Positions 2,220-29,228 are shown, counted from the stretch's first letter. The stretch: DNA of 32,000 nt from an archaeon (GCA_024275415.1 JAJRZD010000039.1:2968-34967); one strand, 5' to 3'. A program made the numbers and translations. The notes: a model not told the origin generated them from the sequence alone.

Positions 2220-2293
2220 TAACCTCCGTGCAATTGGTGAAGCAAATAAGAGTTGTGAGCTGCGCAGCGGACACGTACCTCATCCTTGACACC

Positions 2294-5206: not shown

Positions 5207-5209
5207 CCC

Positions 5210-8098: not shown

Positions 8099-8102
8099 TC
8101 AA

Positions 8103-8918
8103 TCACCCCGTAGTCATGGCGTCCTGATTATCGGGCTCTGTCCCGCCTTTGGAGTCTATGTCAACACCACTGGCTCTGAAGAACTCGCCGATGAGTTCGT
8201 CAACCAGCTTCCCATCACGCAGCAGAAGGATCCGGTCAGCCATCTTGGCGGTTTCGGGATCATGTGTCACTGTGATGACCGCTCTGTTCTGCTCCTTGGC
8301 AAGGTCACGCATCAGTCGTATGATTTCGCCACCAGTCTTGTGGTCAAGGTCGCCGGTGGGCTCGTCGCATAGAAGCACAGCTGGGTCGTTCGCAAGGGCC
8401 CGAGCCAGAGCCACTCGTGATCGCATTCCGCCCGAGAGTTCATGGGGCATATGATTCGCCCTGTTCTCAACACCGACAGCCGCAAGAAGCTCCATACCTT
8501 TCTTGTGCCTCTCCTCCGCACGTACCTCGTCCAGCAGCATAGGAACCTGCACATTCTCGATTGCTGTGAAGATTGGGAGAAGGTGTTGATCCTGAAAGAG
8601 GATGCCAATCTTGTGCCGGCGTATCTCGGACATCTTATCATCATCCAGCTCGGTTATGTCGATGCCGTCAACAATGATTGTCCCACTTGTAGGTTTATCA
8701 AGTCCACCAATGAGGTTCAGAAGAGTTGTCTTTCCGGAGCCAGACGCTCCTACAATGGCGACAAACTCACCTTTGTAGACAGTGAGGTTGGTGCCTCTAA
8801 GCACCTTGATTATTCTTGAGCCATCCTGAAACTCTCGGTATATTTCTTGGCAGACTACTGCAGGTTCTTTTTCGGTGTCCAAGGACGTTGTCTCCTTTGC
8901 TTTGTCCAATAGTGTCAT
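8103..8918 (-). CDS. ABC transporter ATP-binding protein (LolD/MacB-like)
   Basis: GASGSGKT, LSGG, LLCDEPTGDLD, VTHD. First gene of the minus-strand ABC cluster. Confidence 0.93.
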   Translation of the reverse strand: MTLLDKAKETTSLDTEKEPAVVCQEIYREFQDGSRIIKVLRGTNLTVYKGEFVAIVGASGSGKTTLLNLIGGLDKPTSGTIIVDGIDITELDDDKMSEIRRHKIGILFQDQHLLPIFTAIENVQVPMLLDEVRAEERHKKGMELLAAVGVENRANHMPHELSGGMRSRVALARALANDPAVLLCDEPTGDLDHKTGGEIIRLMRDLAKEQNRAVITVTHDPETAKMADRILLLRDGKLVDELIGEFFRASGVDIDSKGGTEPDNQDAMTTG

Positions 8919-9022
8919 ATTTTTAACCTTACTACAGAAGCAATGATTCCAAGCAGAAAAGGGAACTCATGTAATTGTATCGAAATCAGTAAAAGGCTTC
9001 AGACACACTCGGAGATGAGCGT

Positions 9023-9532
9023 ATGATGAAGGCCTTTGCAGTTTCTGGATTCTCATTCTCAGGGAAGACCTTTCTCTTGGAACAGCTTATCTCACATTTG
9101 ATAGAGGAAGGATTCACAGTCGCAACCGTAAAGAATACCATGGAGGATCAAGAGGAACCTGAGGGAACAGATACCTGGAGGCACGCCCAATCTGGTTCCA
9201 ATCCGACCATATTGGTTGGCCCAAGTTCTGCGACGATACGCATCAAAGGTAATGTTTCATTCCTGAACCTGACCAAGATATTTGACAGCGATTTCCTGTT
9301 GTTGGAGGGATTCAAGGAACTGGATGTCCCTCGATTCTGGTGTGTGGGAACTGAATCAAAAGAAACAGATTTCAAACCCACCCAGGTGAAGGCCATTGTG
9401 GTCTGGGAAGGGGAGAACTATCAGGCGGACATGCAAGACATCCCTGTGGTTTCCAATTCCAAGATTAGCCTACTGACTGACATCTTGAAGCGAGAGGCAA
9501 TAGATGTGAACTCACTCAATGGCAGAGTCTGA
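9023..9532 (+). CDS. mobB: Molybdopterin-guanine dinucleotide biosynthesis protein B
   Basis: N-terminal P-loop GFSFSGKT, VATVK, GTDTWRH, LLEGFK pattern typical of MobB. Confidence 0.8.
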   Translation: MMKAFAVSGFSFSGKTFLLEQLISHLIEEGFTVATVKNTMEDQEEPEGTDTWRHAQSGSNPTILVGPSSATIRIKGNVSFLNLTKIFDSDFLLLEGFKELDVPRFWCVGTESKETDFKPTQVKAIVVWEGENYQADMQDIPVVSNSKISLLTDILKREAIDVNSLNGRV

Positions 9533-9580
9533 TAGCGCTGTTCGTAAGATATAACTGGACAACTCAGGCTGGTGGGACTC

Positions 9581-11596
9581 ATGAAAAGGAGCCGATTCCA
9601 CGTAGGTCTGTCAGCAGTTTTCATCTTGGCAATCCTCTGTATCCCATCAGCGGATGTCGTAGGCTACAATGTTGCATCTAAGAACCTATCAGCAGAACCT
9701 GTGAAACAGATGGCTCCTAGTGCTACATTCTCACTGGAGAGTCTATGGGATGGTATCTATGCCAAGACCAGTGAAAGTAGCGCACAGGATCTTGTAAGGC
9801 TGCTCTCGACAAATTACGAGCATCGTGTGTGGTACCCCCTTGACAAGGATGGCTCATATCCGCTGAAAGGTGCCTGGGAATGGATGAATGATACCCTCAA
9901 AAGTGTCACAGGAAACGAGCTGGAGTTCCACTTTATGACCGAGTACCTCAATCTGGTTGCAATCAAAAAGGGAACTGAACCAAACCTTGACCCGATACTC
10001 ATAGTGGGAACCGCATCAAGTCATTATATCTCCGGACCTGCTGCCAATGCATTTGGTTCCACAGTTGCTGCAGTTATCGAATCAGCCCGGATTCTGAACC
10101 AATATAATCTCACGAATGACGTGTATTTCGTTCTCGTAAACACTATTTCTTACGGTTCCTTCACCTATGACTTGGGAAATCAGGGCTTGCACAACCTCAT
10201 CCTAGATCTTGAGGAAGAGGGAAAGACCCCTGCAGCCGTCTTCTGGTTCAATAGATTGTTATATTCAGACGCATCAGAAACATCAGGCGATGCCATAAGA
10301 ATTGATTGGGACTACCTCCAACCTGTCTACGATCAGGTAAGGTATCTTACTGATATTGCGCAGAAAGTTGCTGCGATGTCTGGAACGAAAGATGTCCTGA
10401 TTACAAACCGCTCTTCAAGTACGAGATTCTGGTATGCAACCGGAGGGTACGAGGGATGGCGTAATGACATTCCAAGCCTCACTATCGGACAGGCATATGA
10501 CGACTCTGTTTGGTACTCGGATGAAGATAGATGGAACTACTGGGCTTATGATTATGAAAAACTTGCGAATGCAATAGGACTCGTTTCGTCACTCGTAGCC
10601 ACGTTAGGGTCATTCGGATATGGAGATGCGCCAGAGATATCGCGTACTCTCTCAATCCCAGCAGGTTACAAACTGAACGATTCTATGTCACTGACAGGAG
10701 AGTCCTACCTCAATGTGAGTGTGACTTGGGACAAGAACATTTCCGTGAGTGCGGAGATATTTGACCCTGCGATGGACTCTGTCTATTTCAGGAATGAGAG
10801 CGATAGAACAATAAACATGAGCTATCTTGTCACGACAAAGGGACGCCATTACCTTCGGTTGACAAACTATGGCAATGAGTCCATCACCATCACATACACA
10901 TACTCACAGTTCCAAGACTTCGACTGGGATCTGCTTGATGACCATACTGAATTTCTCTTCGGAACCGATAGCCTATCAAAAGATACGGATGTAGATTTGC
11001 TTGGAGACTATGACGAGTATATCATAGGAACAGACCCACGGGTTCAAGATACAGATCTCGATGGTGCAATGGATGGTGTCGAGATAATCTACGGAAGCAA
11101 TCCTCTAGTGTCCGATTCTGATGGTGATACGCTTCTCGATGGGTTTGAGATTGATAATGGCTACAGTCCTATCTCCAACGACACTGACAGCGATACACTG
11201 AATGATGCATACGAACTCTCGATAGGGACAGACCCTGCGTCGAATGATACAGACCGTGACGGGCTCGACGACGCCTACGAGATAACTATAGGAACCAACC
11301 CACTTTCACCGGATTCTGACCAGGATGGGCTGAGTGACCTTTTCGAGGTACTCAATGCCCTCAATCCAAACTCGGTCGATTCAGATAATGACGGCCTGAC
11401 CGATGCATATGAGATTGAGCAATGCCTCATGCCTTTCGATCCTGACACGGACAGGGACGGCATCATCGACGGACTGGACTGGGCCCCGCGTGACCACTGG
11501 ATAACTATCATTCCACCCATCGCGGTAGGAGTGTTCTTTCTGGGACTCATCGGGGTAATGATTTCCAAGCGGAGAGAGTACATGAGAGGTGCATAG
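9581..11596 (+). CDS. Membrane-anchored M28-peptidase-fold protein, metal ligands lost, with beta-sandwich and acidic 22-aa repeats
   Basis: Signal-like N-terminus, M28-like segment ILIVGTASS...[19 protein letters not shown], DxDxDG repeats, C-terminal TM plus basic tail, many N-x-S/T sequons. ATG 9581 chosen (track uses GTG 9572). Confidence 0.8.
10916..11494 (+). repeat. 8 full plus 1 partial 22-aa (66-nt) thrombospondin type-3-like Ca-binding repeats (coding)
   Basis: Consensus D[TS]DxDGLxDxxExxxGTxPxxx, e.g. [22 protein letters not shown]. Confidence 0.9.
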
Positions 11597-14201: not shown

Positions 14202-15268
14202 TGCTAGTGACGAAGTTTCGTATTGGGATTCTCGGAGCGACAGGCATGGTAGGACAGCAGTTCATCAGGTTACTTGATGGTCATCCGTACTTCGAGGTCG
14301 GTCACCTGTTCGCCTCGGATCATTCTGCGGGACGTCGATATGGGGATGTTACTCGGTGGTCGGTGAGTGCATCCATACCCGAATCTATAGGGGAACTCAC
14401 CATTGAGAGTATATCTGAAATCCCCACTGATGACATCGACATCCTGTTCAGCGCCCTCCCTTCAGACATCGCGGAATCAGTGGAAGAAGATGCGGCTAGA
14501 GCAGGCATCCTAGTATTTTCTAATGCTAACTCGCACAGAATGAAAGATAACGTTCCTATCCTTGTTCCGGAGATCAACTCAGATCATATCCGTCTAGTAG
14601 CACAACAGCCCTACGGCAGGGGCTTCATCGTAACCAACTCGAATTGCTCGACAGCAGGGCTCGTCTTTGGGCTGTACCCGCTGATACCATTCGGAATCGA
14701 ACAGGTTGTAGTCACGACTCTGCAAGCAGTGTCAGGAGGAGGTCTCAAGGGGGTTCCTGCCTTTGATATTCTTGGGAATGTTATCCCCCATATCAAGAAT
14801 GAAGAAGCGAAAATGGAAACGGAAACAAAGAAGATACTGGGGCAATTTACCAAGAACAGAATCGAGCCTTTGAAAACAGACATCAATGCAACATGTACAA
14901 GGGTTCCTGTCCTGAATGGGCATCTGGAGAGCGTTTCCGTAACACTGAAAGAGGAGATTTCTATTGAGGAGGCGGTTCAGCAATTCACCCAGTTCGAGAG
15001 CGGTATCATGGATCTGTCCCTTCCCACAGCTCCAAGGACACCCATCGTTCTCGTGGATGATGAAGACGGCCCACAGCCAAACAAGCATCTCCTCTTACCA
15101 GAGGACCCCCTAGGGATGGCTATCAAAATTGGAAGGATCAGAAGAAAGAGCAAGTCCCTGAGATTCTTGTTACTAGTGCACAATACGATTCGGGGGGCCG
15201 CTGGAGCATCAATCCTGAACGCAGAATATGCGTATGCCGCGGGATACCTTGAGGGGGTGTCTGCTTGA
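14201..15268 (+). CDS. asd: Aspartate-semialdehyde dehydrogenase (archaeal/eukaryal type)
   Basis: GILGATGMVG Rossmann motif, catalytic NSNCST, QAVSGGG, CTRVPVLNGH, HNTIRGAAG. GGAGGTG SD before ATG 14201. Confidence 0.96.
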   Translation: MLVTKFRIGILGATGMVGQQFIRLLDGHPYFEVGHLFASDHSAGRRYGDVTRWSVSASIPESIGELTIESISEIPTDDIDILFSALPSDIAESVEEDAARAGILVFSNANSHRMKDNVPILVPEINSDHIRLVAQQPYGRGFIVTNSNCSTAGLVFGLYPLIPFGIEQVVVTTLQAVSGGGLKGVPAFDILGNVIPHIKNEEAKMETETKKILGQFTKNRIEPLKTDINATCTRVPVLNGHLESVSVTLKEEISIEEAVQQFTQFESGIMDLSLPTAPRTPIVLVDDEDGPQPNKHLLLPEDPLGMAIKIGRIRRKSKSLRFLLLVHNTIRGAAGASILNAEYAYAAGYLEGVSA

Positions 15269-16650
15269 AGGTAGTGAAGTTGGGAGGAGGTTGCCTTCGC
15301 GACGGGAGAAGCTTTCTGAGAGCTGCAAACCTTCTGAAGTACGAGCGGTTCGGTCAGACAGTGGTCGTTGTTTCAGCAGTGAGCGGGGTCACAGATCTGC
15401 TGGAATCTGCAATCCAGAGTGCCCTTGCCACGGAGAATGGAATATCTGACATTATCAAAAGATTGAACGACCTGCATACAGGCATTGTCAGAGATGCCAT
15501 CATAGATCAGAGCAAATGTGACCATCTTCAGAAACTCCTTCAGCCAAAATTCCAAGCTGTCGAAAGGATGCTCTATGGAATCTCATACACAGGGGAAGTA
15601 ACGGAGTCAGTCCGTGTCACCATATTGAGCCAAGGAGAAAGGCTGGCGGCAATCATCTTCGCGGCGGTTCTAGCAGAGATTGGCAAGAATGCTAGTGCAT
15701 TCGAGGCTGACAGAATTGGCATCGTGACCGATTCAGCGTATGACAATGCCACTGCGATACTCCCAGAGGTCAGAAAGAATATCAAAGAAAAGATTGTCCC
15801 GTTGATGCGCAAGGGGATTATCCCCGTTATTACAGGGTTCTTTGGTCAGACACGAGAAGGGAAGACCTCATCCTTTGGACGCAACGGCTCTGATTACAGT
15901 GCTGCTGTCATCGCTCACGCGCTGGAAGCAAGTGAGATTCACATCTGGAAAGATGTAGATGGTTTCATGACAGCGGATCCAAAACTGGTGCCTACCTCTC
16001 GCTCTATCAAGACCCTTTCTTACTTCGAGGCAGCCGAACTCTCGTACTTTGGAGCAAGAATCCTCCATCCCCGCACGGTAGAGCCACTTGTAGGAACCAA
16101 TACCCGAATCCATATCCGCAACATCAATTCCCCAGAAAACACGGCTACAATCATCGTCGAGTCCGGTAAAGAGGAAGAGGATGTCATCAAGAGTGTGACT
16201 TTCAACGGCGATATTTCGGTATTGAGAGTAAGAGGGGCAGGAGTAGGACACAAACCAGGTATCATTGGTACGATTGGAAGGGCTCTGGCTGACGCTAACA
16301 TCAACATCTTCTCAGTCCTCACTGCACAGACATGCATCAATCTGCTCCTTGACAATAAGGATGCAGTCAAGGGTATCGATGCGCTGAGACCGCATATCGG
16401 TGGCGTAATAGACAGCATTGAGCTGCGGACGAATGTCGCTCTTATCGCTGTCGTAGGAGAAGGACTGTTGATAAGAGAAGGGTTGGCCGCCCGTGTCTTC
16501 TCTGCTGTGGCAAAGAAAAGCATCAATGTGGAGATGTTTGCTGCGGGTGCTTCGGATGTGGCATATTATTTCATTGTGGCCCGCGATGACATGGAGAAGG
16601 CCGTAACTGCTGTGCATGACTGTTTCTTTGGCGAAAGGGAATGCAGCTAG
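15265..16650 (+). CDS. lysC: Aspartate kinase with two ACT domains
   Basis: VVKLGG, VVSAVSG, GRNGSDYSA, WKDVDG, C-terminal ACT repeats. TTG start overlaps the asd stop (TTGA). Confidence 0.95.
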   Translation: MKVVKLGGGCLRDGRSFLRAANLLKYERFGQTVVVVSAVSGVTDLLESAIQSALATENGISDIIKRLNDLHTGIVRDAIIDQSKCDHLQKLLQPKFQAVERMLYGISYTGEVTESVRVTILSQGERLAAIIFAAVLAEIGKNASAFEADRIGIVTDSAYDNATAILPEVRKNIKEKIVPLMRKGIIPVITGFFGQTREGKTSSFGRNGSDYSAAVIAHALEASEIHIWKDVDGFMTADPKLVPTSRSIKTLSYFEAAELSYFGARILHPRTVEPLVGTNTRIHIRNINSPENTATIIVESGKEEEDVIKSVTFNGDISVLRVRGAGVGHKPGIIGTIGRALADANINIFSVLTAQTCINLLLDNKDAVKGIDALRPHIGGVIDSIELRTNVALIAVVGEGLLIREGLAARVFSAVAKKSINVEMFAAGASDVAYYFIVARDDMEKAVTAVHDCFFGERECS

Positions 16651-21305: not shown

Positions 21306-22088
21306 TCATGTGATTGACCTCAACTTCTGGTGCAGATCTTGAATCGTGTCTATGATCAGTGTCCCCTCCGGAGCCAAATGTTGCTGCTCTGGGTCGCACC
21401 ACGTTATGAGTACAGGGAGCATCCCTGCTCTCTGCGCGGCTACTACATCATCCCCGACTTTGTTCCCGACGTAGGCACAACGGAACGGATTAGAGCCAAG
21501 ATCCTTGGCAACCGTAAGGAGCATGTAAGGAGAAGGTTTTGCATAGCCGGGCACATGAGAATACTCGACTGCCCCGAAGAGATGCCCGATGCCGTCAGCG
21601 ATAAGATATTTCCGTGGGTCACCAAACCTGTTTGAGGCGATGCCAAGCTTGTAGCCCAAGGAGTGGAGATATTCCAACCCTTCTTTGCACCCATCCACAA
21701 GGTCAGGCTTGATGCGTGACAGATACTCGTCCCACTTTGACTGGTATGCCTCAGCAAGCATATCGATATCTCCATCAATGCACAGGGTTTCAAGTAACAT
21801 CCGGTCATACTGTATCCAAAGATCCCGTGAAGGTTCCCAGTGCGAATCCACACCATGATTTAGCATGTACTTCACAAGCCAATCGTTGCGTTGCGTGTGC
21901 AATGCAGTTTCCATGTCCTCATCGGTAATCCTCTCGCATTCATGAATCCCAGCATCAATCAGATGCTTCCGTGCTATCTGGACAAGGTGCTCGTGTGACT
22001 TGTACAGGGTGCCACCAAGGTCGAATATTATCGTGTCAATCTCATTTCGTAACATCATCTTCGCAACACACAGAACACGGTTCCACAT
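21306..22088 (-). CDS. HAD-superfamily hydrolase
   Basis: Motif I IIFDLGGTL, motif II IASN, KPSP, motif IV VGNKVGDDV. Confidence 0.88.
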   Translation of the reverse strand: MWNRVLCVAKMMLRNEIDTIIFDLGGTLYKSHEHLVQIARKHLIDAGIHECERITDEDMETALHTQRNDWLVKYMLNHGVDSHWEPSRDLWIQYDRMLLETLCIDGDIDMLAEAYQSKWDEYLSRIKPDLVDGCKEGLEYLHSLGYKLGIASNRFGDPRKYLIADGIGHLFGAVEYSHVPGYAKPSPYMLLTVAKDLGSNPFRCAYVGNKVGDDVVAAQRAGMLPVLITWCDPEQQHLAPEGTLIIDTIQDLHQKLRSIT

Positions 22089-22092
22089 TAGG

Positions 22093-22279
22093 ATTTGGGA
22101 TTGCTAACATCTGCGAGAAAGCTGGACATCTCGTGGTAGGTGATTCTATACGACCGGACAGTACTATGACACAAGGTCGGACGACACGCGATACTGATCA
22201 CACGGGGGCGTTACCAGTGCCGTCCTTGGGAGGACAAGACTCTGGTGTCCTAATCTGTCCAGATTACAATGAACGGTGA
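22093..22279 (+). ncRNA. Candidate structured RNA / dispersed repeat element, copy 1
   Basis: About 83% identical to 27906-28101 (30 mismatches over 179 nt from TTGCTAAC, plus one 10-nt indel). Stems are preserved between the copies. Intergenic between divergent HAD and TPR genes. Confidence 0.55.
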
Positions 22280-22317
22280 ATGTGAATCCTTTTGAATAGT
22301 CGAGTTAGTATTCCAGT

Positions 22318-23475
22318 GTGATTGGAATGAGCACTCCTGAGCAATCACTGAAGACAGTCGAAGAACACCTGAAGAACCATCCTGATGATGCGTCTGCATG
22401 GAACATCAAGGGTGTCATATTAGCAACGCTTGGCGAGTTTGGTCCTGCATTACGTGCCTTGAATCAAGCAATCAAGCTGAATGCTCAGTTACAAGAGGCA
22501 TACGCCAACAAAGGAAGGGTCTTGCTGGCTCTTGGCCCTGACAATGCAACTGAGGCGCTGAAGGCATTCGACAAGGCACTCCATCTGAAGCCAAGCGACT
22601 ATGGCACGCTGAAGGACAAGGTATTCGCACTACGAGCATTGGGTAGGTTGACTGAAGAAAAGAAATGCTTGGAAACCCTTGTACAGGAAATGTCTGATGA
22701 TTGGAAAGCGTGGATGAGGATTGGCAACATCCAGCTTGAACAGGGTGATTTCAAGCAGGCTGACGGAAGTTTTGGGAAGGTTCTGGATATCGAGCCAAAC
22801 CATGCAGGTGCCATGGTTCATCGCGCTATAGCAATGTCCATGATGGAAAAGTGGAGCAGTGCCATCAAAATCGCAAAAAGAGCATGCGATGTAGCACCAA
22901 ACGACGTGGAAGTATGGCGTGTCCTTGGAGATATCAATATCAGGGCTGGAAAGTATCGTGCAGCACTCAAGGCTCTCAAAAGGGCCAGTAAAATCAATCC
23001 CGAGGATGCTCAAGTCGAACTATTGATGGGAATCGTCGAGTACAGGTCAGGACAACTAAGAGAAGCCATCAAGCACTTCAAACGCGCAACAATTCGGGAT
23101 CGTAAGAGTCATCGTGCCTATCGAAACATGGCACTTGTTTCCATGGAGATGGAAGACTGGCAGACTGCAATGAACGCATGGGAGCGATTCATTCGACTTG
23201 TAAACAACGATGCTGAGGCATACGACGCCCTTGCAACAGTCTGTGCTAGGATTGATGATTTCTGTGCTGCTTCTGAAGCATGGGAGAAAGCACGGAAACT
23301 ATTCAAAAAAAGGAACGACACAGACAATGCATCGAGGGTCACTGAGCTAGGTCGAGCGGCTCGTATCAATTGCTCCAGACAGAAGAAGGCAGAGAAGGCC
23401 AGACGGGAGCACGAGAAAGCTACGAGGAGCTTCTCAGACCGCCACAGGTTGCGAGGTAAGAAGAAGAAGCGGTAA
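22318..23475 (+). CDS. Tetratricopeptide repeat protein with basic C-terminal tail
   Basis: Repeated W/Y-x2-G...A-x3-(F/L)-x2-A-x4-P units. Ends RHRLRGKKKKR. ATG 22327 is a possible start. Confidence 0.9.
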   Translation: MIGMSTPEQSLKTVEEHLKNHPDDASAWNIKGVILATLGEFGPALRALNQAIKLNAQLQEAYANKGRVLLALGPDNATEALKAFDKALHLKPSDYGTLKDKVFALRALGRLTEEKKCLETLVQEMSDDWKAWMRIGNIQLEQGDFKQADGSFGKVLDIEPNHAGAMVHRAIAMSMMEKWSSAIKIAKRACDVAPNDVEVWRVLGDINIRAGKYRAALKALKRASKINPEDAQVELLMGIVEYRSGQLREAIKHFKRATIRDRKSHRAYRNMALVSMEMEDWQTAMNAWERFIRLVNNDAEAYDALATVCARIDDFCAASEAWEKARKLFKKRNDTDNASRVTELGRAARINCSRQKKAEKARREHEKATRSFSDRHRLRGKKKKR

Positions 23476-23496
23476 GCAGGAAAAGAAACAATCGGC

Positions 23497-24306
23497 TCAC
23501 TCGACAGAGTCGTTGATGAGCGACTCGATGAAGAACTCGATAGCGAACCTATCCTGGGTCATCTCGATGTACCACGGAGACTTGAAGTTCAACTCGTTCA
23601 TGATTTCCTTGACATCTAACCCGCGGACATGGAGTTCACGTACCAACTCGTGTGTTTCTTTCAAGTAGTCGATACGGACTTTGATGTGCTCGTCAGGTGC
23701 ATGGACAGCACCCTTGTGAGAGTCGAAGAGAACCTCTATGTCCAAACACCGAATCCGTTCCATGGTCGCTATCATAAGAGGGATGTTCTCCTCGGGCATT
23801 GCTATGTATTTCTTAGATGGGAGAGGGATCGCGTCTGCTGAAATGAACCATTTTCGATTCGACTCATAGAACCCGATCATGTCCTCGAAGTGACCAGGGA
23901 GTTCCACCACCTCGAAATGGAAATCTCCTACTTCGAACATGCGTGGTGTTTCTGATACGTCATCGATGGGTGAAGGTTGTCCCCATACATACTTGAAAAA
24001 CTCGCCGAGCTCTGGAGGGTTCCGTAGTAAACTCATACTGGATCCCCATGCATGAATGTCCGCGTCTTTCGCCAGCACATCAACACATCCGCAGTGATCC
24101 TCATGTGCATGTGTGATGTACACATCAGAGATTTGAGTGGTCTTCAGATAGGCGGCAAACTCATCCCGCGCATTCGCACAGCCTGCGTCGAAGAGCACAT
24201 TGCCTATTTGATAGCAGTACACCCACAATATCGGCTTCCCATCGGGACCGGGAGTAGCGGTTCGTATCCCAGTAACTTCATCTCCAAGTGGCTCCAGTTC
24301 AAACAT
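23497..24306 (-). CDS. MBL-fold metallo-hydrolase
   Basis: THAHEDHCG (HxHxDH), PGH, SAD, DSH. Confidence 0.9.
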   Translation of the reverse strand: MFELEPLGDEVTGIRTATPGPDGKPILWVYCYQIGNVLFDAGCANARDEFAAYLKTTQISDVYITHAHEDHCGCVDVLAKDADIHAWGSSMSLLRNPPELGEFFKYVWGQPSPIDDVSETPRMFEVGDFHFEVVELPGHFEDMIGFYESNRKWFISADAIPLPSKKYIAMPEENIPLMIATMERIRCLDIEVLFDSHKGAVHAPDEHIKVRIDYLKETHELVRELHVRGLDVKEIMNELNFKSPWYIEMTQDRFAIEFFIESLINDSVE

Positions 24307-24441
24307 GATAGTATGTGGTAATCCGAAGGGATAAATGGCTTCTTCGGTGAGCGCGCTGTGCTTTTCTATGCAGTCTAACCGCCGCTTCGCAATATGTAGT
24401 AAGAAGACTCAAACCTGTTCGTTTTAGTATCAGGGACAGTT

Positions 24442-25332
24442 ATGCCCGACAATGACCAACGAATCAGGTATGCTACCAAGGGGGCTGATGGTAAGTTCAA
24501 ACCACCATTCCCAGTAAGTCCAGTGGAATTGACCGAACTGACTCGTAAGATGGTATGCAGAGAGGAGAACGGAACACACCTTAGAAAGTACACTAGCTTT
24601 TACGGGGTCGGTGTATATGGGGGGATAGCAACAGCGTATTCAGTAGGATGTAATTTTCGATGTGTGTTCTGCTGGGTCGACTGGAGCCGAGACTGGCCAG
24701 AACGATATGGATCATTCTATACGCCCGGGCAAGTGTACCAACGACTCCGTGAGGTCATGAGTGGATGTGGTTATAGGCGAGCACGGATTAGTGGGGCAGA
24801 GCCCACTCTATGTCCCGAACATCTTTGTTCAGTCCTTGACCTAGTTCATCGAGAGCGGGAAGCCTTTGATCTATTTGTTATAGAAACCAATGGAGTTGTG
24901 ATCTCGCAAGAGAGAGGCTTCGCCGAACGACTGGAAAAATACGCATCCCGTGATAGAACCCGCGGAACAGTAGGACATGTCCGTCTATCGATAAGGGGCG
25001 GGCAACCGGAAGCTTTCGAAGAGAAGACCGGATGCACGCAAGATTCCATGGAACTCCCGTTCATCGCAGCTCGGAGATTGTGGGATGCTCAAGTCTCATT
25101 CCATGTTGCAGTTGTTGTGGATGAACGATTCACATCGCCCGATGAGGAGGAGAGAATCTATGAGAGATTGGCGGACATCGACCAATCGATAGCAAGTTCT
25201 GTCGAGCGTGAGATCCTAGACCCATATCCTCATGCACTGGTACGTCTTCGAGCAGTAAGAAGAGAAGATATCACAGGGAACAAGATCTCTAGAAAAGAGG
25301 AGGCAGTCCTCCGAAAGAAACCTCCTGCATGA
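24442..25332 (+). CDS. Radical SAM protein (archaeal uncharacterised Fe-S oxidoreductase type)
   Basis: CNFRCVFC (CxxxCxxC), RISGAEP, IETNG, VRLSIRG. Confidence 0.9.
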   Translation: MPDNDQRIRYATKGADGKFKPPFPVSPVELTELTRKMVCREENGTHLRKYTSFYGVGVYGGIATAYSVGCNFRCVFCWVDWSRDWPERYGSFYTPGQVYQRLREVMSGCGYRRARISGAEPTLCPEHLCSVLDLVHREREAFDLFVIETNGVVISQERGFAERLEKYASRDRTRGTVGHVRLSIRGGQPEAFEEKTGCTQDSMELPFIAARRLWDAQVSFHVAVVVDERFTSPDEEERIYERLADIDQSIASSVEREILDPYPHALVRLRAVRREDITGNKISRKEEAVLRKKPPA

Positions 25333-25334
25333 TT

Positions 25335-26459
25335 CTAAGGGGCAGCTCGATGGAGAACGGGTGGGGCGAACTTTCGGAGCCTCCGTAACCCCACAACCCG
25401 GTCTTTTCTGCCAAGCTTTGCATCCTGAAGGGCGATTTCCATGAAGCGGATGGCCTCGTCGTATGCCTTTCTCGGTACAGGGAATGGGACGCCATCCTTC
25501 CCGCCAAAAGCAAAGGTCATACGAACAGGGTCTATCCATGAGGGAGCGTCCCCATAAATCATCTCTGATATCAATGATAGTCCTCTAATGGCAGCAGGGC
25601 CAATACCCTGTATGAACAGGAGTTCCTCATAATCAGACGGTTGTGTTTCATACGCCTTTCGAACTGCGTTCCAATTCATCCGTTTTGGAATGACCTTGTA
25701 GGAAGGAATCTGCCTTTCGGGAGCATGTCCCTCCATCCACGGGATGAGGGTCGTTTCACCATATGCCTTGATATCATCAAGCATCCGACGGATTCGAATC
25801 GGTTCCTCCTTTACGATGTCCAGTGACGTTTTCCTGCAGTCATAGGACTCCTTTGCTGTCATATCAAGTGCAGCGTTCTTTATCTCCCCCGAAATCATCC
25901 CCGAATGAGGTTCATCGATATAGACTCGGAAATATCCCGAGGTCCAGTGGTACCTCCGTGCGTCACCTGCTTTGCTATCCATCCCTTGCTGCACAACTGT
26001 CCAGTTCTCTTCGGTATCGACAAAGAACATGTGCTGATAGAGAGAGTAACCATCCTGTATCGCAGCATTATCGACCTTTGCCACCTTTCGGCTGATCTCT
26101 GCTAACTCATTCCCATCAAGACCAAAGTCTGTGAGGGCATAAAGTTGATCAGGCGTCTTCTTGGATGCCAGACCTTTTCCGCCCGCAGCCACGATGCTGT
26201 GTTTCTCCCAAGTCAGGACAGAGCGCAGGACACCACAAGTGACAGTAGTACTCCCGCTGGAGTCCCAATCATATCCCAACACATTGGAGAGTGCCTGAAA
26301 GTAGACAGGATCCGCTAACCGATGAAGGAGTTCCTTTGTCCCAAACTCGTCCACTATGAACTGACAAAGCGCATCGGCCATAGGCATCATCCGTTTGACA
26401 AGCCAGTGGGGTGCTGTGCCCGGATGTAGCTTGAGGTCTGCAATCCCGCCTCTTTTCAT
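25335..26459 (-). CDS. DUF763 family protein
   Basis: ADLKLHPGTAPHWL, WDSSGSTT, GYSLYQH, VVQQGM, RRYHW, GIGP, FGGKDGVPFPV. Confidence 0.88.
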   Translation of the reverse strand: MKRGGIADLKLHPGTAPHWLVKRMMPMADALCQFIVDEFGTKELLHRLADPVYFQALSNVLGYDWDSSGSTTVTCGVLRSVLTWEKHSIVAAGGKGLASKKTPDQLYALTDFGLDGNELAEISRKVAKVDNAAIQDGYSLYQHMFFVDTEENWTVVQQGMDSKAGDARRYHWTSGYFRVYIDEPHSGMISGEIKNAALDMTAKESYDCRKTSLDIVKEEPIRIRRMLDDIKAYGETTLIPWMEGHAPERQIPSYKVIPKRMNWNAVRKAYETQPSDYEELLFIQGIGPAAIRGLSLISEMIYGDAPSWIDPVRMTFAFGGKDGVPFPVPRKAYDEAIRFMEIALQDAKLGRKDRVVGLRRLRKFAPPVLHRAAP

Positions 26460-26700
26460 CGTTCATTACCTAGTATATGCAGTATGTACCACTGATAATA
26501 AGCATGACAGCATTCCGAAACTATTTTTAGCAGTCCGACACCCAATGAATTGGTAATAGCATTTCTCAATTCGCCGAAATGTCTTTCTTCGATTAACTGA
26601 TACAGCTGGCAATCTTTTTATCCTAAAGAAGGCAACAGATACGTAATGTTTTACCGGAAGATTGTCCGGTGGAATTCTGTTATCATCAGAAGTGATACGT

Positions 26701-27237
26701 ATGACTGAGATTGCTGAATGGAATGAAGCCGTGGATTACAACGAGTTCCTCGAGCAAGCAAGAGAGAACGTAGAACTCATGAGGGCGAGGGTCGATGACC
26801 TGTCCTTGACTGAAGAAGAAGAGAACATGATCAGAAGTATCCAGAACGAGATCAAGATCCTTGTAATTGGAACAGACCGTTGCAATGACAGTGCAGGAGT
26901 CTTTCCAGTCCTAGCTCGCATAGCATCGATCGCTCCAAAAGTAGAGCTTCGAGTCCTTGATAGTGACAAATATGCAAGATTCCATCAGCAGTTCCGGGTT
27001 AATGGCAAGCGAAAGACACCAGTAGTTCTCTTTCTCAGTTCAGAGCTGAACGAACTCTGCAGATGGGTTGAACGGCCAAACGCCGTCTATCAAGTGGTCA
27101 ATGAGAAGAACCTCTCGATGGACGACCGACGCGGTACATTGCGGAAGCTGTACAGTGACCCAGAAATATTACGCCAACTGTTTGGTGAGCTCAAATATCT
27201 TCTCATCAGAGCAGACTTGTTATTAGGACGCAGTTGA
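26701..27237 (+). CDS. Thioredoxin-like protein (Thioredoxin_9-type)
   Basis: LVIGTDRCNDS at the active-site position and cis-Pro region KRKTPVVLF. ATG 26701 chosen. Confidence 0.75.
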   Translation: MTEIAEWNEAVDYNEFLEQARENVELMRARVDDLSLTEEEENMIRSIQNEIKILVIGTDRCNDSAGVFPVLARIASIAPKVELRVLDSDKYARFHQQFRVNGKRKTPVVLFLSSELNELCRWVERPNAVYQVVNEKNLSMDDRRGTLRKLYSDPEILRQLFGELKYLLIRADLLLGRS

Positions 27238-27238
27238 A

Positions 27239-27895
27239 ATGGGCGAGGATCTTTCCAAGGATAACTGGGAGAATCCTGACAAGGTAAAGGACTTCGCCAG
27301 AAACTATGCTGCCAGATATGAGGGTGTGTTCTGGGAACGGCTTGAAAGCATTGTCCCAGATATGCGCAGTCCTGTAATCGCGGATTTCGGATGTGGCCCG
27401 GGGTTATGGCTGGTCGATGCAGCTGCCAGGTTTCAGGCTACGAAGATATACGGGCTGGACGCGAGTCGGACGATGCTTGAATATGCAGGCACCATCCTCA
27501 AGGATAAAGCATCACATATCGAACACGAGCTTCACCACGTTAATTTTGATACTGACCCCATACCCCTTGAGGAAAGTATTCTCGACCTTGCCTTCGGTGG
27601 TTATATGCTTCACGAGATGGCAGACGCGCTAGCATTTCTCAGGAGTATTTTGCTGCACATAAAAAAGGGAGGTATCTGTGTCGTCTTCGATTTTGTTTCA
27701 GGGGGCGTAGAACAGTTCGTTCAACAGATGGTTGCCAGAGGGTGGGATGAAGAGCAGGCCATAAACAGATATCCACATATGTGTAAATACTCTGCTGCAG
27801 ACATAGAGAGGATGATGAAGGATTCAGGATTTCGGATAGTAGGAGCCAGTGTCATAGAGAAAGTACGTGCTATCACAGTGGGAGTAAGAGAATGA
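27239..27895 (+). CDS. Class I SAM-dependent methyltransferase
   Basis: ADFGCGPG, GLDAS, DLAF...MLHE. Confidence 0.9.
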   Translation: MGEDLSKDNWENPDKVKDFARNYAARYEGVFWERLESIVPDMRSPVIADFGCGPGLWLVDAAARFQATKIYGLDASRTMLEYAGTILKDKASHIEHELHHVNFDTDPIPLEESILDLAFGGYMLHEMADALAFLRSILLHIKKGGICVVFDFVSGGVEQFVQQMVARGWDEEQAINRYPHMCKYSAADIERMMKDSGFRIVGASVIEKVRAITVGVRE

Positions 27896-27905
27896 AGACT
27901 GATGC

Positions 27906-28101
27906 ATTCGGGTTGCTAACATTTGCGAGAGAGCTGGACAAAGATAGATATCTCGTGGTAAGTGATTCTTTGCGGCTGGACAGTGCTAGGACACAAGGTC
28001 GAACGACACGCGATGTTGAACACACAGAGTCGTTCTCAGTACCTTCTCTAGGAGGGCAAGACTCTGGTGTCCAGACTTGTCCGGGTTACAATGAACGGTG
28101 A
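27906..28101 (+). ncRNA. Candidate structured RNA / dispersed repeat element, copy 2
   Basis: Second copy. Fills almost the whole gap between the methyltransferase stop and priL, and its last bases GGTGA form the priL SD. Confidence 0.55.
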
Positions 28102-28106
28102 GGAAG

Positions 28107-29228
28107 ATGGCTACTCGGCTTCAGCTTCTCAGATATCCATTCTCACGAGAAGCCCGTCAAGCGATGCAACGAGTGGCAAGAGACCTTGGAACGCTTATCA
28201 ACATTGTCGAGGCACAAGAGGGAAACTATGTTATTCGTGAAGCAACAGAAAGAGTCTACGCTGCATTGAATCAGGAAGAGATAGTGACTGTCAATACGAA
28301 CGACGACAGGGACTTCTTGATCTACTCCACGGCACGTCTGATTGTGGAGAAACTTGGCGACAACAGACTGAAAGAATATCAGGCAGAAGCCGAGTCCAAG
28401 GCAGTGAACAAGCATCTCGGCAATGAATCGGACGACTTTGTGATGCATCTTTGCAGGACAAGCTTTGATTGGGACGTAGAGAGGGTTGGGGGGAGCACAA
28501 AGAAGTCCGCCCTTCCGGACTATCTGCAACGATTTGACTTCCAAATGTCCTTCATCAATTTCCTTGAGATAGCGCCACGGTTCCATGCGGACGAATGGAA
28601 GCTCGTCAATCGCATAGTGGAGCGCGGAAAAGTTCCAGTGAGGGGGTCAGAACTTCGACGCCTGATATCGGAAAAGTTCAAAATTCTCATCCTCAACAGC
28701 ACGTTGTCTGTGCCGACTCTACCCCGAAACCTCAGTCTAGCAGTCCAGCAAATCGAGTCGGATCTCAAGGTCAAGCTGAAACGGAGCGAGCCAATCAAGT
28801 TCACAGAAAAGACGGTCACAGCATTCCCACCTTGCATTACTGCGATGCATCAGACTGCACTTGAAGGGAAGAACCTGTCACATCATGCCCGCTTCACCCT
28901 TGCATCGTTCCTCCTGAAGATAGGGATGTCAGAGGATGAGGTGCTTGGTATCTTCAAATCCGCTCCAGATTTTGTCAGGGGTCTTGCTGAGTATCAGGTC
29001 AGGCACATCGCTTCCAAGTCAGGAGGCGAGGGATACACGCCGCCGGCATGCCGCAATCTCAGAGGGAATGGGTTGTGCCCTGTATACCAGGGAACCACCT
29101 TTGATCCTCTTTGCGAGTACATCGTCCACCCACTGGGTTTCTATGAAACGAGGGCATGGGAGATTTCAAAGGGCGTCAAGAGCCATTCATGGTATGCTCA
29201 AAAAAGAAAGAAGTTGCAAAGCTTCTAG
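28107..29228 (+). CDS. priL: DNA primase large subunit
   Basis: C-terminal Fe-S domain FPPC...HHARFTLASFL...YTPPACRNL...LCP...C. ATG 28107 with GGTGA SD (track start GTG 28098). Confidence 0.92.
   Translation: MATRLQLLRYPFSREARQAMQRVARDLGTLINIVEAQEGNYVIREATERVYAALNQEEIVTVNTNDDRDFLIYSTARLIVEKLGDNRLKEYQAEAESKAVNKHLGNESDDFVMHLCRTSFDWDVERVGGSTKKSALPDYLQRFDFQMSFINFLEIAPRFHADEWKLVNRIVERGKVPVRGSELRRLISEKFKILILNSTLSVPTLPRNLSLAVQQIESDLKVKLKRSEPIKFTEKTVTAFPPCITAMHQTALEGKNLSHHARFTLASFLLKIGMSEDEVLGIFKSAPDFVRGLAEYQVRHIASKSGGEGYTPPACRNLRGNGLCPVYQGTTFDPLCEYIVHPLGFYETRAWEISKGVKSHSWYAQKRKKLQSF

What the first reader, a model, noticed from the sequence alone, without database searches (positions are those of the whole stretch)
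22093..28101. Two copies of an unexplained ~190-nt intergenic element whose differences preserve an RNA fold
Seen: 22093-22279 and 27906-28101 align in the same orientation with about 83% identity plus one 10-nt indel. Four helices on the + strand survive the divergence. (P1a) GGGAUUGCU 22097-105 pairs with GGUGAUUCU 22139-147; in copy 2 an A-U becomes G-U and a U-G becomes U-A, with the outermost pair lost. (P1b) CUGCGAGA/UCUCGUGG, and the 10-nt insertion AAAGATAGAT of copy 2 falls inside its loop. (P2) CGACC/GGUCG becomes CGGCU/GGUCG. (P-last) AAUCU-GUCC-AGAUU becomes GACUU-GUCC-GGGUU, including a fully compensatory U-A to C-G change. CCAG/CUGG to UCAG/CUGG is also kept. The many G-U pairs work only on the + strand. 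Over the last 50 codons the best ORF is only 72% identical, below the nucleotide identity, which is unlike a conserved protein. I recognise no match to tRNA, SRP, RNase P, group I/II intron, hammerhead or known riboswitch consensus. Inference: a dispersed structured ncRNA family, cis-regulatory leader, ribozyme or RNA-bearing non-autonomous mobile element. Caveat: transitions alone often keep wobble pairs, and two sequences give weak covariation evidence.
Basis: partly seen in the sequence, partly recalled or inferred. Interest (0 to 1): 0.82.

Follow-up and report, generated by a model that had tools for sequence, protein, structure and literature searches.

The report
Miniature IS607-type transposon carrying guide-RNA
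The two look-alike intergenic stretches are copies of a roughly 75-copy family of gene-less miniature transposons in this Asgard (Thorarchaeota) genome; each keeps only the two ends of a larger IS607-type element, including the folded guide-RNA region of its TnpB/Cas12-like nuclease, so the RNA fold is real but of a known kind.

Summary
In detail: window 22097-22277 and 27910-28099 are 83.3% identical, with one 10-nt indel.

They are not a pair. The genome holds about 75 copies, 55 near full length. A structure model finds the 3' module in 29 of 40 other genomes of the same family.

The ends are sharp: GGGTTGC... to ...AACGGT, with GG at both junctions and no inverted repeats or target duplication. 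These are IS607 hallmarks (PMC6188088).

In relatives the same ends bound an 8.6-kb element. It carries a serine recombinase, a giant unknown ORF and a ~715-aa TnpB/Cas12f-like nuclease. The element's last ~65 nt overlap that nuclease's stop codon, as omega/guide RNAs do.

Covariation is strong across genomes (0/500 shuffles) but absent among this genome's own copies. Those copies look like neutrally decaying fossils: no intact nuclease or cognate transposase was found here.

No Rfam family matches, and it is not a protein gene.

The scan reached the same reading earlier on another piece of this genome (e1-5445291). I tested it independently and agree. It is a new member of a known kind.

The parts
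22097..22277 (+). Copy 1 of the miniature element (subfamily C), 181 nt. It runs from GGG(A)TTGC to AACGGT and lies between the divergent HAD-hydrolase and TPR genes.
   Evidence: nhmmer family hit C16:25065-25244. Borders come from the 46-copy alignment and flank logos. Its nearest relative is C122:6777-6956, at 93.9% identity.
27910..28099 (+). Copy 2 of the miniature element (subfamily C), 190 nt. It is inserted between the methyltransferase stop codon and the DNA primase large-subunit start codon.
   Evidence: nhmmer hit C16:30877-31066. Same-genus genomes G005 and G006 have only about 25-45 nt between the two genes and no element.
22097..22165 (+). Left-end part of copy 1. It holds the GG junction, the GTTGC..AACA(G/T)CTG terminus, one TGGACAT motif (22123-22129; the second unit is deleted) and a TATA-like TTCTATAC (22144-22151).
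   Evidence: It is homologous to the left end and the tnpA-upstream region of the 8.6-kb element (L171 1650-1718). Two TTGGACA units 11 nt apart and a TTTAWATA box are conserved in relatives.
22166..22277 (+). Right-end / omega-RNA-like module of copy 1: helix S1, helix Hy, hairpin CCAG(22214-22217)/UUGG(22226-22229), loop GCCGU (22219-22223) complementary to the terminal ACGGU (22273-22277), and tandem TGTCC units at 22246-22250 and 22256-22260.
   Evidence: Covariance model R1 scores it at 86 bits (C16:25133-25244).
27910..27987 (+). Left-end part of copy 2. It holds TGGACAA (27935-27941) plus a degenerate second unit. The 10 nt at 27940-27949 are missing in copy 1. The TATA-like box has decayed to TTCTTTGC (27966-27973).
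27988..28099 (+). Right-end / omega-RNA-like module of copy 2. The inferred guide would be the flank from 28100 onward, which is the ribosome-binding site and start of the primase gene.
   Evidence: Model R1 scores it at 80.7 bits (C16:30955-31066). That the guide follows the right end is inferred by analogy with IS607 TnpB systems (bioRxiv 10.1101/2023.11.20.567912, read).
27892..28101 (+). Spurious 69-aa ORF spanning copy 2. It shows ATGA and GTGA overlaps with its neighbours and is not a gene.
   Evidence: It has no Pfam hit. The frame is shifted in copy 1 by the 10-nt indel. Only 12 of 46 copies have any frame open across the element, and lengths mod 3 are spread 15/18/13.
27239..27895 (+). 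Upstream neighbour of copy 2: a class I SAM-dependent methyltransferase. It is context only and not part of the element.
   Evidence: Pfam Methyltransf_23/25/11.
28110..29228 (+). Downstream neighbour of copy 2: the DNA primase large subunit. The real start is the ATG at 28110, not the GTG at 28098. It is context only.
   Evidence: Pfam DNA_primase_lrg at 91 bits. The ATGG start is conserved in G005 and G006.

Best explanation
Each copy is a gene-less miniature derivative of an IS607-family transposon, the kind moved by a serine recombinase. It arose by internal deletion of a larger element still present in related Thorarchaeota.

That larger element is about 8.6 kb: left end, tnpA (serine recombinase), a roughly 1,800-aa ORF of unknown function on the other strand, a roughly 715-aa TnpB/Cas12f-like nuclease gene, then the right end. 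A 2.3-kb form carries the nuclease gene alone.

The miniature keeps two parts.
1. About 95 nt of the left end. This holds the GG crossover dinucleotide, two TTGGACA recombinase-type motifs and the TATA box that precedes tnpA.
2. About 95-110 nt ending at the right end. The last ~65 nt of this part are the stretch that overlaps the nuclease's stop codon in the full element.

Shown here:
- copy number and sharp borders;
- shared ends with the full elements;
- the overlap with the nuclease's 3' end;
- covarying helices across genera.

Inferred:
- The recombinase moves the miniature in trans by GG-to-GG exchange.
- The TATA box starts a transcript at helix S1. This RNA folds (S1, Hy enclosing the CCCAG/CUGGG hairpin, and a loop-to-tail pseudoknot GCCGUU/AACGGU), runs out of the right end, and uses the flanking DNA as its guide.
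- The nuclease, supplied in trans, would then cut empty sites and restore the element, as shown for other TnpB systems.

In this genome the family looks like a fossil. Copies are 6-25% diverged from their nearest relative and decay evenly along their length. Only a truncated nuclease gene was found, and no cognate recombinase.

The confidence of 0.82 is for the identity of the element (a miniature IS607-type derivative that carries the right-end RNA region). That the RNA is made and used as a guide in trans I put at about 0.5.
For: Family size and borders:
- About 75 nhmmer hits, 55 near full length, in unrelated intergenic contexts and both orientations.
- Sharp borders with flat flank logos and GG at both junctions.
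- IS607 elements have no inverted repeats or target duplication, exchange DNA at GG, prefer (G)GG targets, and carry short direct repeats near their ends (PMC6188088).
- The studied IS607 TnpB uses the motif TGGG, and its guide-RNA scaffold ends ...UCGG (10.1101/2023.11.20.567912). This element ends ...AACGG.

Link to the full elements:
- The 3' module sits on the stop codon of the nuclease ORF in 26 of 30 loci from relatives.
- The 5' module sits upstream of the nuclease ORF (L095) or of tnpA (L171, L173).
- That tnpA has an N-terminal MerR-type HTH followed by a resolvase domain.
- The nuclease has a Cas12f1-like TNB domain (58 bits), intact D/E/D and zinc-finger motifs, and a predicted fold that matches only Cas12/TnpB/Fanzor structures.

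Insertion: same-genus genomes lack the element between the methyltransferase and primase genes.

RNA structure, across 64 sequences from about 30 genomes:
- 86.4% of cells are paired against 74.1% in shuffles.
- 216 cells show double changes against 65 in shuffles.
- 22 of 31 pairs show compensatory change; no shuffle in 500 reached any measure.
- Many G-U pairs fit only the + strand.

Promoter: a TATA-like octamer lies 69-72 nt before the hairpin in 15 of 23 relatives' copies; 17 of 23 carry such an octamer at all.

Fossil state here:
- Only the C-terminal 299 residues of the nuclease are present, on contig C120.
- The only resolvase gene is 36% identical to the cognate type.
- Nearest-neighbour identity is 88% at the median and 93.9% at most.
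- Decay is even along the element.
Against: - No transcript data could be obtained, so expression, the transcript start and guide use are untested.
- Among this genome's 40 copies the covariation is not above shuffled controls (83.1 against 82.4% paired, 13/500).
- The cross-genome alignment was fitted to the model's structure and its sequences are related, so both inflate the covariation measures.
- The pseudoknot is supported only by one-sided (transition) changes.
- The element's middle part (about model positions 63-122, including helix S1) has no detectable counterpart in the full elements. The simple 'LE plus RE by one deletion' picture is therefore incomplete.
- No Rfam family is hit, including the RAGATH-18 family reported for IS607 TnpB RNAs.
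- The nuclease falls below the curated TnpB family cut-offs (56.5 bits against 100).
- Single-sequence folding energies are not unusual (z = -1.6 to +0.3).
- The TATA box is degenerate in this genome's copies (1 of 38 match the pattern).
Confidence: 0.82

Rival explanations
1. A host-domesticated family of small regulatory RNAs or cis-regulatory leaders. Under this reading the copies are kept because each RNA, or its promoter, regulates the neighbouring gene, independently of any transposon nuclease.
For: - The element carries a conserved TATA box and a structured RNA.
- It persists in genomes where no intact nuclease was found. These include this genome, G026 (42 hits) and G028 (57 hits).
- Copy 2 points into the primase gene start.
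Against: - Copies sit in both orientations next to unrelated genes, with no recurring neighbour.
- Within subfamilies, substitutions are spread evenly along the element.
- Covariation is absent among this genome's copies, and the TATA box has decayed here. All three fit neutral decay, not maintenance.
- Orthologous sites in same-genus genomes lack the element.
Confidence: 0.07
2. A palindrome-associated (PATE-like) derivative of an IS200/IS605 element, moved as single-stranded DNA by a Y1 (HUH) TnpA that recognises subterminal hairpins.
For: - Gene-less IS605 derivatives carrying guide RNAs are documented (10.1101/2023.03.14.532601).
- The element has stem-loops near both ends, and its parent encodes a TnpB relative.
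Against: - No Y1 transposase was found in this 92.9%-complete genome.
- The autonomous relatives carry a serine recombinase directly behind the shared left end.
- The junctions are GG/GG, with no conserved 4-5-nt motif 5' of the left end.
- The end motifs are tandem direct repeats, not hairpins.
Confidence: 0.02
3. A small protein-coding gene family. Copy 2 reads as a 69-aa ORF translationally coupled to both neighbours.
For: ORF 27892-28101 has ATGA and GTGA overlaps with its neighbours. Both window copies are open over the last ~49 codons.
Against: - The 10-nt indel shifts the frame between the two copies.
- Only 12 of 46 copies have any frame open across the element.
- Lengths mod 3 are evenly spread, and no frame is open in more than 18 of 46 copies over the last 40 codons.
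- There is no Pfam hit.
Confidence: 0.01
4. A recent local duplication of one intergenic segment within this 6-kb region.
For: Two same-strand copies lie 5.8 kb apart.
Against: - About 75 copies lie on more than 40 contigs, and hundreds more in 29 other genomes.
- Copy 1's closest relative lies on another contig (93.9% identity). The two window copies are only 83% alike.
Confidence: 0.01

Closest known systems
IS607-family transposons with TnpB and omega (right-end) RNA, for example the Clostridium botulinum IStron (bioRxiv 10.1101/2023.11.20.567912) and IS607/IS1535/ISC1926 (PMC6188088)
   Same: - A serine recombinase with an N-terminal HTH lies in the autonomous form.
- GG is at both junctions, with a G-rich target.
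- There are no terminal inverted repeats or target duplication.
- Short tandem motifs lie near both ends.
- A TnpB-type nuclease gene's 3' end overlaps a structured RNA that stops at the right end on ...CGG.
   Different: - The copies in the window carry no gene at all.
- The parental nuclease is about 715 aa (typical TnpB is about 400), scores below the curated TnpB cut-offs, and has a large helical insert.
- The parent carries a ~1,800-aa unknown ORF.
- The RNA matches no Rfam model, RAGATH-18 included.
- The host is an Asgard archaeon.
PATE-like gene-less IS200/IS605 derivatives that encode omega RNAs (Geobacillus stearothermophilus; bioRxiv 10.1101/2023.03.14.532601)
   Same: These are miniature non-autonomous elements that keep both transposon ends and the guide-RNA scaffold. 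They depend on a transposase and a nuclease supplied in trans.
   Different: PATEs have palindromic hairpin ends and move as single strands by a Y1 transposase, next to a 4-5-nt motif. This element has serine-recombinase-type ends (GG, tandem repeats). It also places a TATA box about 22 nt before the first RNA helix.
Classical prokaryotic MITEs
   Same: Short (about 160-220 nt), high copy number, intergenic, derived from an insertion sequence by internal deletion, and prone to breaking assemblies at contig ends.
   Different: There are no terminal inverted repeats and no target-site duplication. 'Miniature' applies; 'inverted-repeat' does not.

Membership tests
IS607-family transposon (non-autonomous derivative) | The autonomous relatives encode a serine recombinase TnpA with an N-terminal DNA-binding domain. 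| tested here: met
   L171 1719-2339 has HTH_17/MerR at residues 1-48 and Resolvase at 66-197. It lies directly behind a left end that matches model positions 2-50 of the element. L172 and L173 have the same layout.
IS607-family transposon (non-autonomous derivative) | A GG dinucleotide at both element-host junctions, with a (G)GG target. | tested here: met
   The left end reads G 50/56, G 49/56, G 49/56. The right end reads ..C G G at 56, 56 and 54 of 62. The G005 empty site reads ..CTGGTGA...
IS607-family transposon (non-autonomous derivative) | No terminal inverted repeats and no target-site duplication. | tested here: met
   The termini GGGTTGC and AACGGT are not inverted copies of each other. 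The flank logos are flat on both sides.
IS607-family transposon (non-autonomous derivative) | Short directly repeated motifs near both ends, with a subterminal inverted repeat between the ends. | tested here: met
   TTGGACA occurs twice, 11 nt apart, in the left end. TGTCCAAnTT occurs twice in tandem in the right end, in inverted orientation. Binding by the recombinase was not tested.
IS607-family transposon (non-autonomous derivative) | Mobilised by the recombinase. | not testable with these tools
   The evidence is indirect only: copy number, empty sites in G005 and G006, and presence in 13 of 16 genera.
TnpB omega RNA / right-end RNA | Overlaps the 3' end of the nuclease ORF and ends at the transposon's right end. 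| tested here: met
   In 26 of 30 loci from relatives, model positions ~123-189 cover the last ~30 nt of the ORF plus ~33 nt beyond the stop codon.
TnpB omega RNA / right-end RNA | A conserved secondary structure supported by covariation. | tested here: inconclusive
   Covariation is strong across about 30 genomes (0/500 shuffles on all five measures), but that alignment is fitted to the model. It is not significant among this genome's own copies. The pseudoknot rests on one-sided changes only.
TnpB omega RNA / right-end RNA | Transcribed, bound by the nuclease, and guiding cleavage through its flank-derived 3' end. | not testable with these tools
   No sequencing run was listed.
Rfam RAGATH-18 (reported RNA of IS607 TnpBs) or any other Rfam family | A covariance-model match. 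| tested here: not met
   No hits at gathering scores in the window. At E <= 5 on 11 copies and 4 parent loci there were only three chance C/D-box matches.
TnpB / Cas12f superfamily (the parental nuclease) | A RuvC D-E-D triad, a zinc-ribbon TNB domain and a Cas12/TnpB fold. | tested here: met
   The motifs GADRG, FFEDL and HADxNAARN and the CxxC pairs are invariant in 15 homologs. Pfam TNB scores 58 bits. The top 50 Foldseek hits, all with E <= 6e-4, are Cas12, TnpB or Fanzor structures. NCBIfam guided_TnpB scores 56.5 bits against a cut-off of 100.
IS200/IS605 PATE | A Y1 transposase partner, subterminal hairpins, and insertion 3' of a fixed 4-5-nt motif. | tested here: not met
   No Y1_Tnp was found in the genome. 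The 5' flank carries no conserved motif. The autonomous form carries a serine recombinase.

The most novel reading that the evidence does not exclude
The promoter-equipped miniatures may be more than debris. They could be a dispersed repertoire of 20-60 trans-acting guide RNAs per genome, each programmed by its own flank. Such elements would parasitise both the recombinase and the ~715-aa Cas12-sized nuclease of an undescribed 8.6-kb IS607-like element that also carries a giant ~1,800-aa cargo gene. In lineages that lost the nuclease, some of these RNAs may have been taken over by the host as regulators of the gene they point into. This would be a Thorarchaeota-wide guide-RNA 'hyperparasite' system and a new large TnpB branch.
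Probability: 0.15. Interest if true: 0.75.

Novelty: new member of a known kind. Interest (0 to 1): 0.4.

Why it matters
- It explains a conspicuous unannotated repeat. The family has about 75 copies here and hundreds across Thorarchaeota. It breaks assemblies, creates false small ORFs such as 27892-28101, and can mislead start-codon calls such as that of the primase gene.
- It shows that IS607-type elements, like IS605, spawn gene-less offspring that keep the guide-RNA scaffold. Here the scaffold appears to have its own TATA box.
- It points to a large, divergent TnpB/Cas12f-like nuclease family with a defined RNA scaffold and a likely G-rich target motif in Asgard archaea. This may interest people studying the origin of Cas12 and Fanzor nucleases or looking for new compact editors.
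- The element itself is an ordinary kind of selfish DNA, and in this genome it is probably inert.

Tried and rejected
- **Rfam.** Nothing at gathering scores over the whole window or at E <= 5 on 15 loci.
- **tRNA/tmRNA scan.** Nothing found.
- **Single-sequence folding** of one copy from each subfamily. The energies are not unusual (z = -1.57, -0.53, +0.32), so thermodynamic stability says nothing here.
- **RNAalifold on the mixed 40-copy alignment.** It found only the loop-tail pairing, because the subfamilies are misaligned in the middle. Per-subfamily alifold gave three different folds.
- **Pfam on the 69-aa ORF.** No hit.
- **Public sequencing runs for window 21500-28600.** None was listed and no RNA holder was listed. 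Expression therefore could not be examined, and read laying was not used.
- **Exact empty-site borders.** Same-genus genomes are only 65-69% identical at the nucleotide level. The absence of the element is clear, but which GG was the crossover site is not.
- **Canonical IS607 on contig C57 as the parent.** Its termini resemble the element's (GGGTTAACAACAG and ..CAACGGT). However, nhmmer finds no further similarity. Its TnpB shows only a weak local match to the C120 fragment (24% over 88 aa), and its TnpA is 36% identical to the cognate type. It is at most a possible cross-mobiliser.
- **Giant ORF and the nuclease's N-terminal half.** No Pfam, NCBIfam or PDB sequence match for the giant ORF. 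The protein-atlas scores for the giant ORF are about 0.8, pointing to STAND NTPase or Mrr, which is below the level that means anything. The hits for the nuclease's N-terminal half are uninformative.
- **The last hairpin in two registers.** It is weak in both, so it is better read as tandem repeat units.

Full report
**1. The observation**

The two stretches are real repeats. Trimmed to the family borders, window 22097-22277 and 27910-28099 share 150 of 180 aligned bases (83.3%). They differ by one 10-nt indel and one 1-nt indel, and similarity ends abruptly on both sides. Its borders are 4 nt too wide on the left and 2 nt too wide on the right.

**2. Not two copies but a family**

- A BLAST of copy 2 against the window's own assembly (3.5 Mb, 127 contigs, 92.9% complete) gave 42 matches.
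- Iterated nhmmer converged on 75 hits, 55 of them near full length at 158-222 nt.
- The hits lie in unrelated intergenic contexts, in either orientation relative to their neighbours, with no recurring adjacent gene. Several sit at contig ends.
- An alignment of 46 copies with 40-nt flanks shows sharp borders. Every copy starts GGGTTGC.AACAGCTG and ends CAAT(A/G)AACGGT, and the flanks are unrelated.
- Position logos confirm this. Information content is below 0.2 bit at all positions left of the GGG and below 0.3 bit right of the final T.
- At least three subfamilies (A, B, C) share the two ends and differ in the middle. Both window copies belong to C.

**3. It is not a protein gene and not a known RNA family**

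- Copy 2 reads as a 69-aa ORF with overlapping start and stop codons. The 10-nt indel shifts the frame in copy 1.
- Element lengths are spread evenly over the three residues mod 3. Only 12 of 46 copies have any open frame across the element. Pfam finds nothing.
- Rfam finds nothing at gathering scores or at E <= 5. No tRNA-like gene is present.

**4. What the ends are**

- The assembly has no Y1 (IS200/IS605) transposase. It has one resolvase-type gene, which lies beside a canonical tnpB on contig C57.
- It also has one short TnpB-like ORF on contig C120 (343 aa; Cas12f1-like TNB domain at 55.6 bits). The element's last 65 nt cover that ORF's stop codon and run 33 nt beyond it. A weak match to the element's 5' part lies about 1 kb upstream, just before the ORF.
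- Searching 40 other genomes of the same GTDB family with the C120 protein showed that it is a fragment. In relatives the homologous frame is 711-758 aa.
- In 26 of 30 loci fetched from relatives, the element's 3' module sits on the end of that frame. In L095 the element's first 62 positions lie 105 nt before the ORF start, which gives a 2.3-kb element.
- A search with the C57 recombinase revealed the complete form. In L171 (G013) the left end (element positions 2-50) is followed by:
  - a 206-aa MerR-HTH plus resolvase protein;
  - an 1,838-aa ORF on the opposite strand;
  - the 731-aa nuclease gene;
  - the right end.

  The whole element spans about 8.6 kb. L172 (G050) and L173 (G035) have the same layout.

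**5. Comparison with IS607 as described**

According to PMC6188088, IS607-family elements:
- lack terminal inverted repeats and target duplications;
- exchange DNA at a GG present at both termini and in the target;
- prefer (G)GG targets;
- carry short direct repeats plus an imperfect inverted repeat near their ends;
- use a serine recombinase with an N-terminal DNA-binding domain.

According to bioRxiv 10.1101/2023.11.20.567912, the C. botulinum IS607-type element inserts at TGGG, its TnpB uses TGGG as its target-adjacent motif, and its guide-RNA scaffold ends ...UCGG.

The present family shows each sequence feature:
- GG(G) on the left and ...ACGG on the right;
- no inverted termini;
- two TTGGACA units 11 nt apart in the left end;
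- two tandem TGTCCAAnTT units, in inverted orientation, in the right end.

**6. The insertion is derived**

In two same-genus genomes (G005, G006) the methyltransferase and primase genes are neighbours, as in the window. They are separated by only about 25-45 nt, with a ..CTGGTGA.. site in G005 and no element. Nucleotide identity is too low (65-69%) to fix the crossover base.

**7. The nuclease**

- Fifteen homologs align over their full length. The GADRG, FFEDL and HADxNAARN motifs and two CxxC pairs are invariant.
- Sequence matches to solved Cas12f and TnpB structures are weak (best E = 7e-6). NCBIfam TnpB and Cas12f models score far below their cut-offs.
- An AlphaFold2 model (mean pLDDT 71.8, pTM 0.48) matches Cas12k, Cas12f, Fanzor2 and TnpB structures in all 50 listed Foldseek hits (E from 1e-7 to 6e-4). 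TM-scores are low, as expected for a multi-domain protein.
- I therefore read it as a divergent, enlarged member of the TnpB/Cas12 superfamily.

**8. The RNA fold**

*Proposed fold of the last 112 nt.* I drew four elements:
- a hairpin S1;
- a helix Hy (CAGAGU/ACUCUG) that encloses the hairpin Hc (CCCAG, loop UGCCGUUnU, CUGGG);
- a terminal hairpin;
- a pairing of the Hc loop (GCCGUU) with the last six bases (AACGGU).

*Within this genome.* Among the 40 copies, 83.1% of cells pair. Shuffled controls give 82.4%, and none of the covariation measures stands out.

*Across genomes.*
- A covariance model built from these copies finds 63 copies here and the module in 29 of 40 other genomes (13 of 16 genera), with up to 57 copies per genome.
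- I aligned 64 hits from about 30 genomes to the model. There, 86.4% of cells pair against 74.1% in shuffles, and 216 cells carry changes on both sides against 65. In total 22 of 31 pairs show compensatory change, and no shuffle in 500 reaches any of the five measures.
- S1 switches between GAGG/CCUC and CUGG/CCAG. Hy switches between CAGAG/CUCUG and AGGAG/CUCCU. The closing pair of Hc switches between C-G (37 sequences) and U-A (22).
- The pseudoknot keeps 95% pairing, but only through one-sided changes. The terminal hairpin is weak (71%).

*Caveats.* The alignment is fitted to the structure and the sequences are related.

*Conclusion.* A strand-specific RNA structure exists in the active lineage of the element. 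The two window copies by themselves do not demonstrate it.

**9. A promoter**

- In copies from other genera, the best-conserved feature of the middle region is a TTTAWATA-type box preceded by a G-rich stretch.
- A loose TATA pattern is present in 17 of 23 copies. In 15 of them it lies 69-72 nt before Hc, which puts it about 22 nt before S1. The spacer between them is not conserved.
- In the 8.6-kb element the homologous box precedes tnpA. The miniature therefore seems to couple the tnpA promoter directly to the RNA module.
- In this genome the box has decayed: 1 of 38 copies match the pattern.

**10. State of the family in this genome**

- The nearest-neighbour identity between copies is 88% at the median and never above 93.9%.
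- Deviations from subfamily consensus are spread evenly along the element, at 0.05-0.14 per site.
- Only the C-terminal 299 residues of the nuclease are encoded anywhere in the assembly.
- The only resolvase gene is the 36%-identical one on contig C57.
- By my reading of the tables, about 12 of the 30 genomes that carry the RNA module showed no long nuclease frame with this query.
- The copies in the window are therefore most likely inert relics. Seven percent of the genome is unassembled, so a hidden active copy cannot be excluded.

**11. Prior knowledge and novelty**

- Gene-less IS200/IS605 derivatives that 'often encode omega RNAs' acting in trans are described (10.1101/2023.03.14.532601). 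IS607 TnpB systems are characterised.
- Full-text searches combining IS607, TnpB, serine recombinase and MITE, or Asgard with TnpB, returned no paper describing IS607-type miniatures or this nuclease family. The library is incomplete.
- An earlier follow-up of this scan, on another piece of the same genome (e1-5445291), reached the same reading. I had proposed the omega-RNA/miniature idea beforehand. I took the IS607 lead from that note and tested it here.
- Verdict: a new member of a known kind, and probably inert in this genome. The larger parent element and its nuclease are the more interesting by-products.

Noticed in passing
L171 (G013:C18:14500-25500) 1650-10230; same layout in L172 (G050) and L173 (G035): This is an 8.6-kb IS607-like element. 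It runs left end, serine recombinase, a 1,700-1,860-aa ORF on the opposite strand, a ~720-aa TnpB/Cas12f-like nuclease, right end. The giant ORF has no Pfam, NCBIfam or PDB sequence match, and protein-atlas leads (STAND NTPase, Mrr) score only about 0.8. A recombinase gene lies about 6.5-8 kb upstream of the nuclease gene on the same strand in at least 9 genomes.
   Followed up: partly
L095 265-2400 (G009) and 14 homologs (alignment A7): This is a conserved ~715-aa TnpB/Cas12 superfamily protein of Thorarchaeota. It has an intact RuvC triad and a ~200-residue helical insert (residues 90-290), and it scores below the curated TnpB and Cas12f family cut-offs. Its conserved C-terminal tail SSAVxGRTA is encoded by the RNA hairpin itself.
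   Followed up: partly
G000 contig C120:7823-8854 (L031 1024-2055, minus strand): This is a 1.1-kb intermediate deletion derivative. It consists of the left end, a 343-aa remnant that keeps only the RuvC and zinc-ribbon part of the nuclease, and the right end. It is the only sizeable nuclease fragment in this assembly.
   Followed up: yes
G000 contig C57 ~14300-16170 (L032 1298-3165, minus strand): This is a single canonical IS607: a 190-aa serine recombinase plus a 409-aa TnpB with OrfB_IS605, TNB and HTH domains. Its termini (GGGTTAACAACAG and ..GGGCAACGGT) resemble those of the miniature family, so it is a possible cross-mobiliser.
   Followed up: partly
window 28098-28112: The primase large-subunit ORF is listed from the GTG at 28098, inside the element's last bases. 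The start conserved in relatives is the ATG at 28110, preceded by GGTGAGGA. The element insertion thus supplies or replaces the upstream region of an essential replication gene.
   Followed up: partly
G026 and G028: Two genomes carry 42 and 57 copies of the RNA module but only short or stop-riddled nuclease remnants. Large miniature families therefore outlive their nuclease.
   Followed up: no
G000 contig ends (e.g. C6:388-599, C50:134-321, C37:49-124, C60:18-93, C62:48012-48198, C67:28295-28481, C102:1-36): Many copies lie within a few hundred bases of contig ends. This suggests the family is one cause of the fragmentation of this assembly.
   Followed up: no
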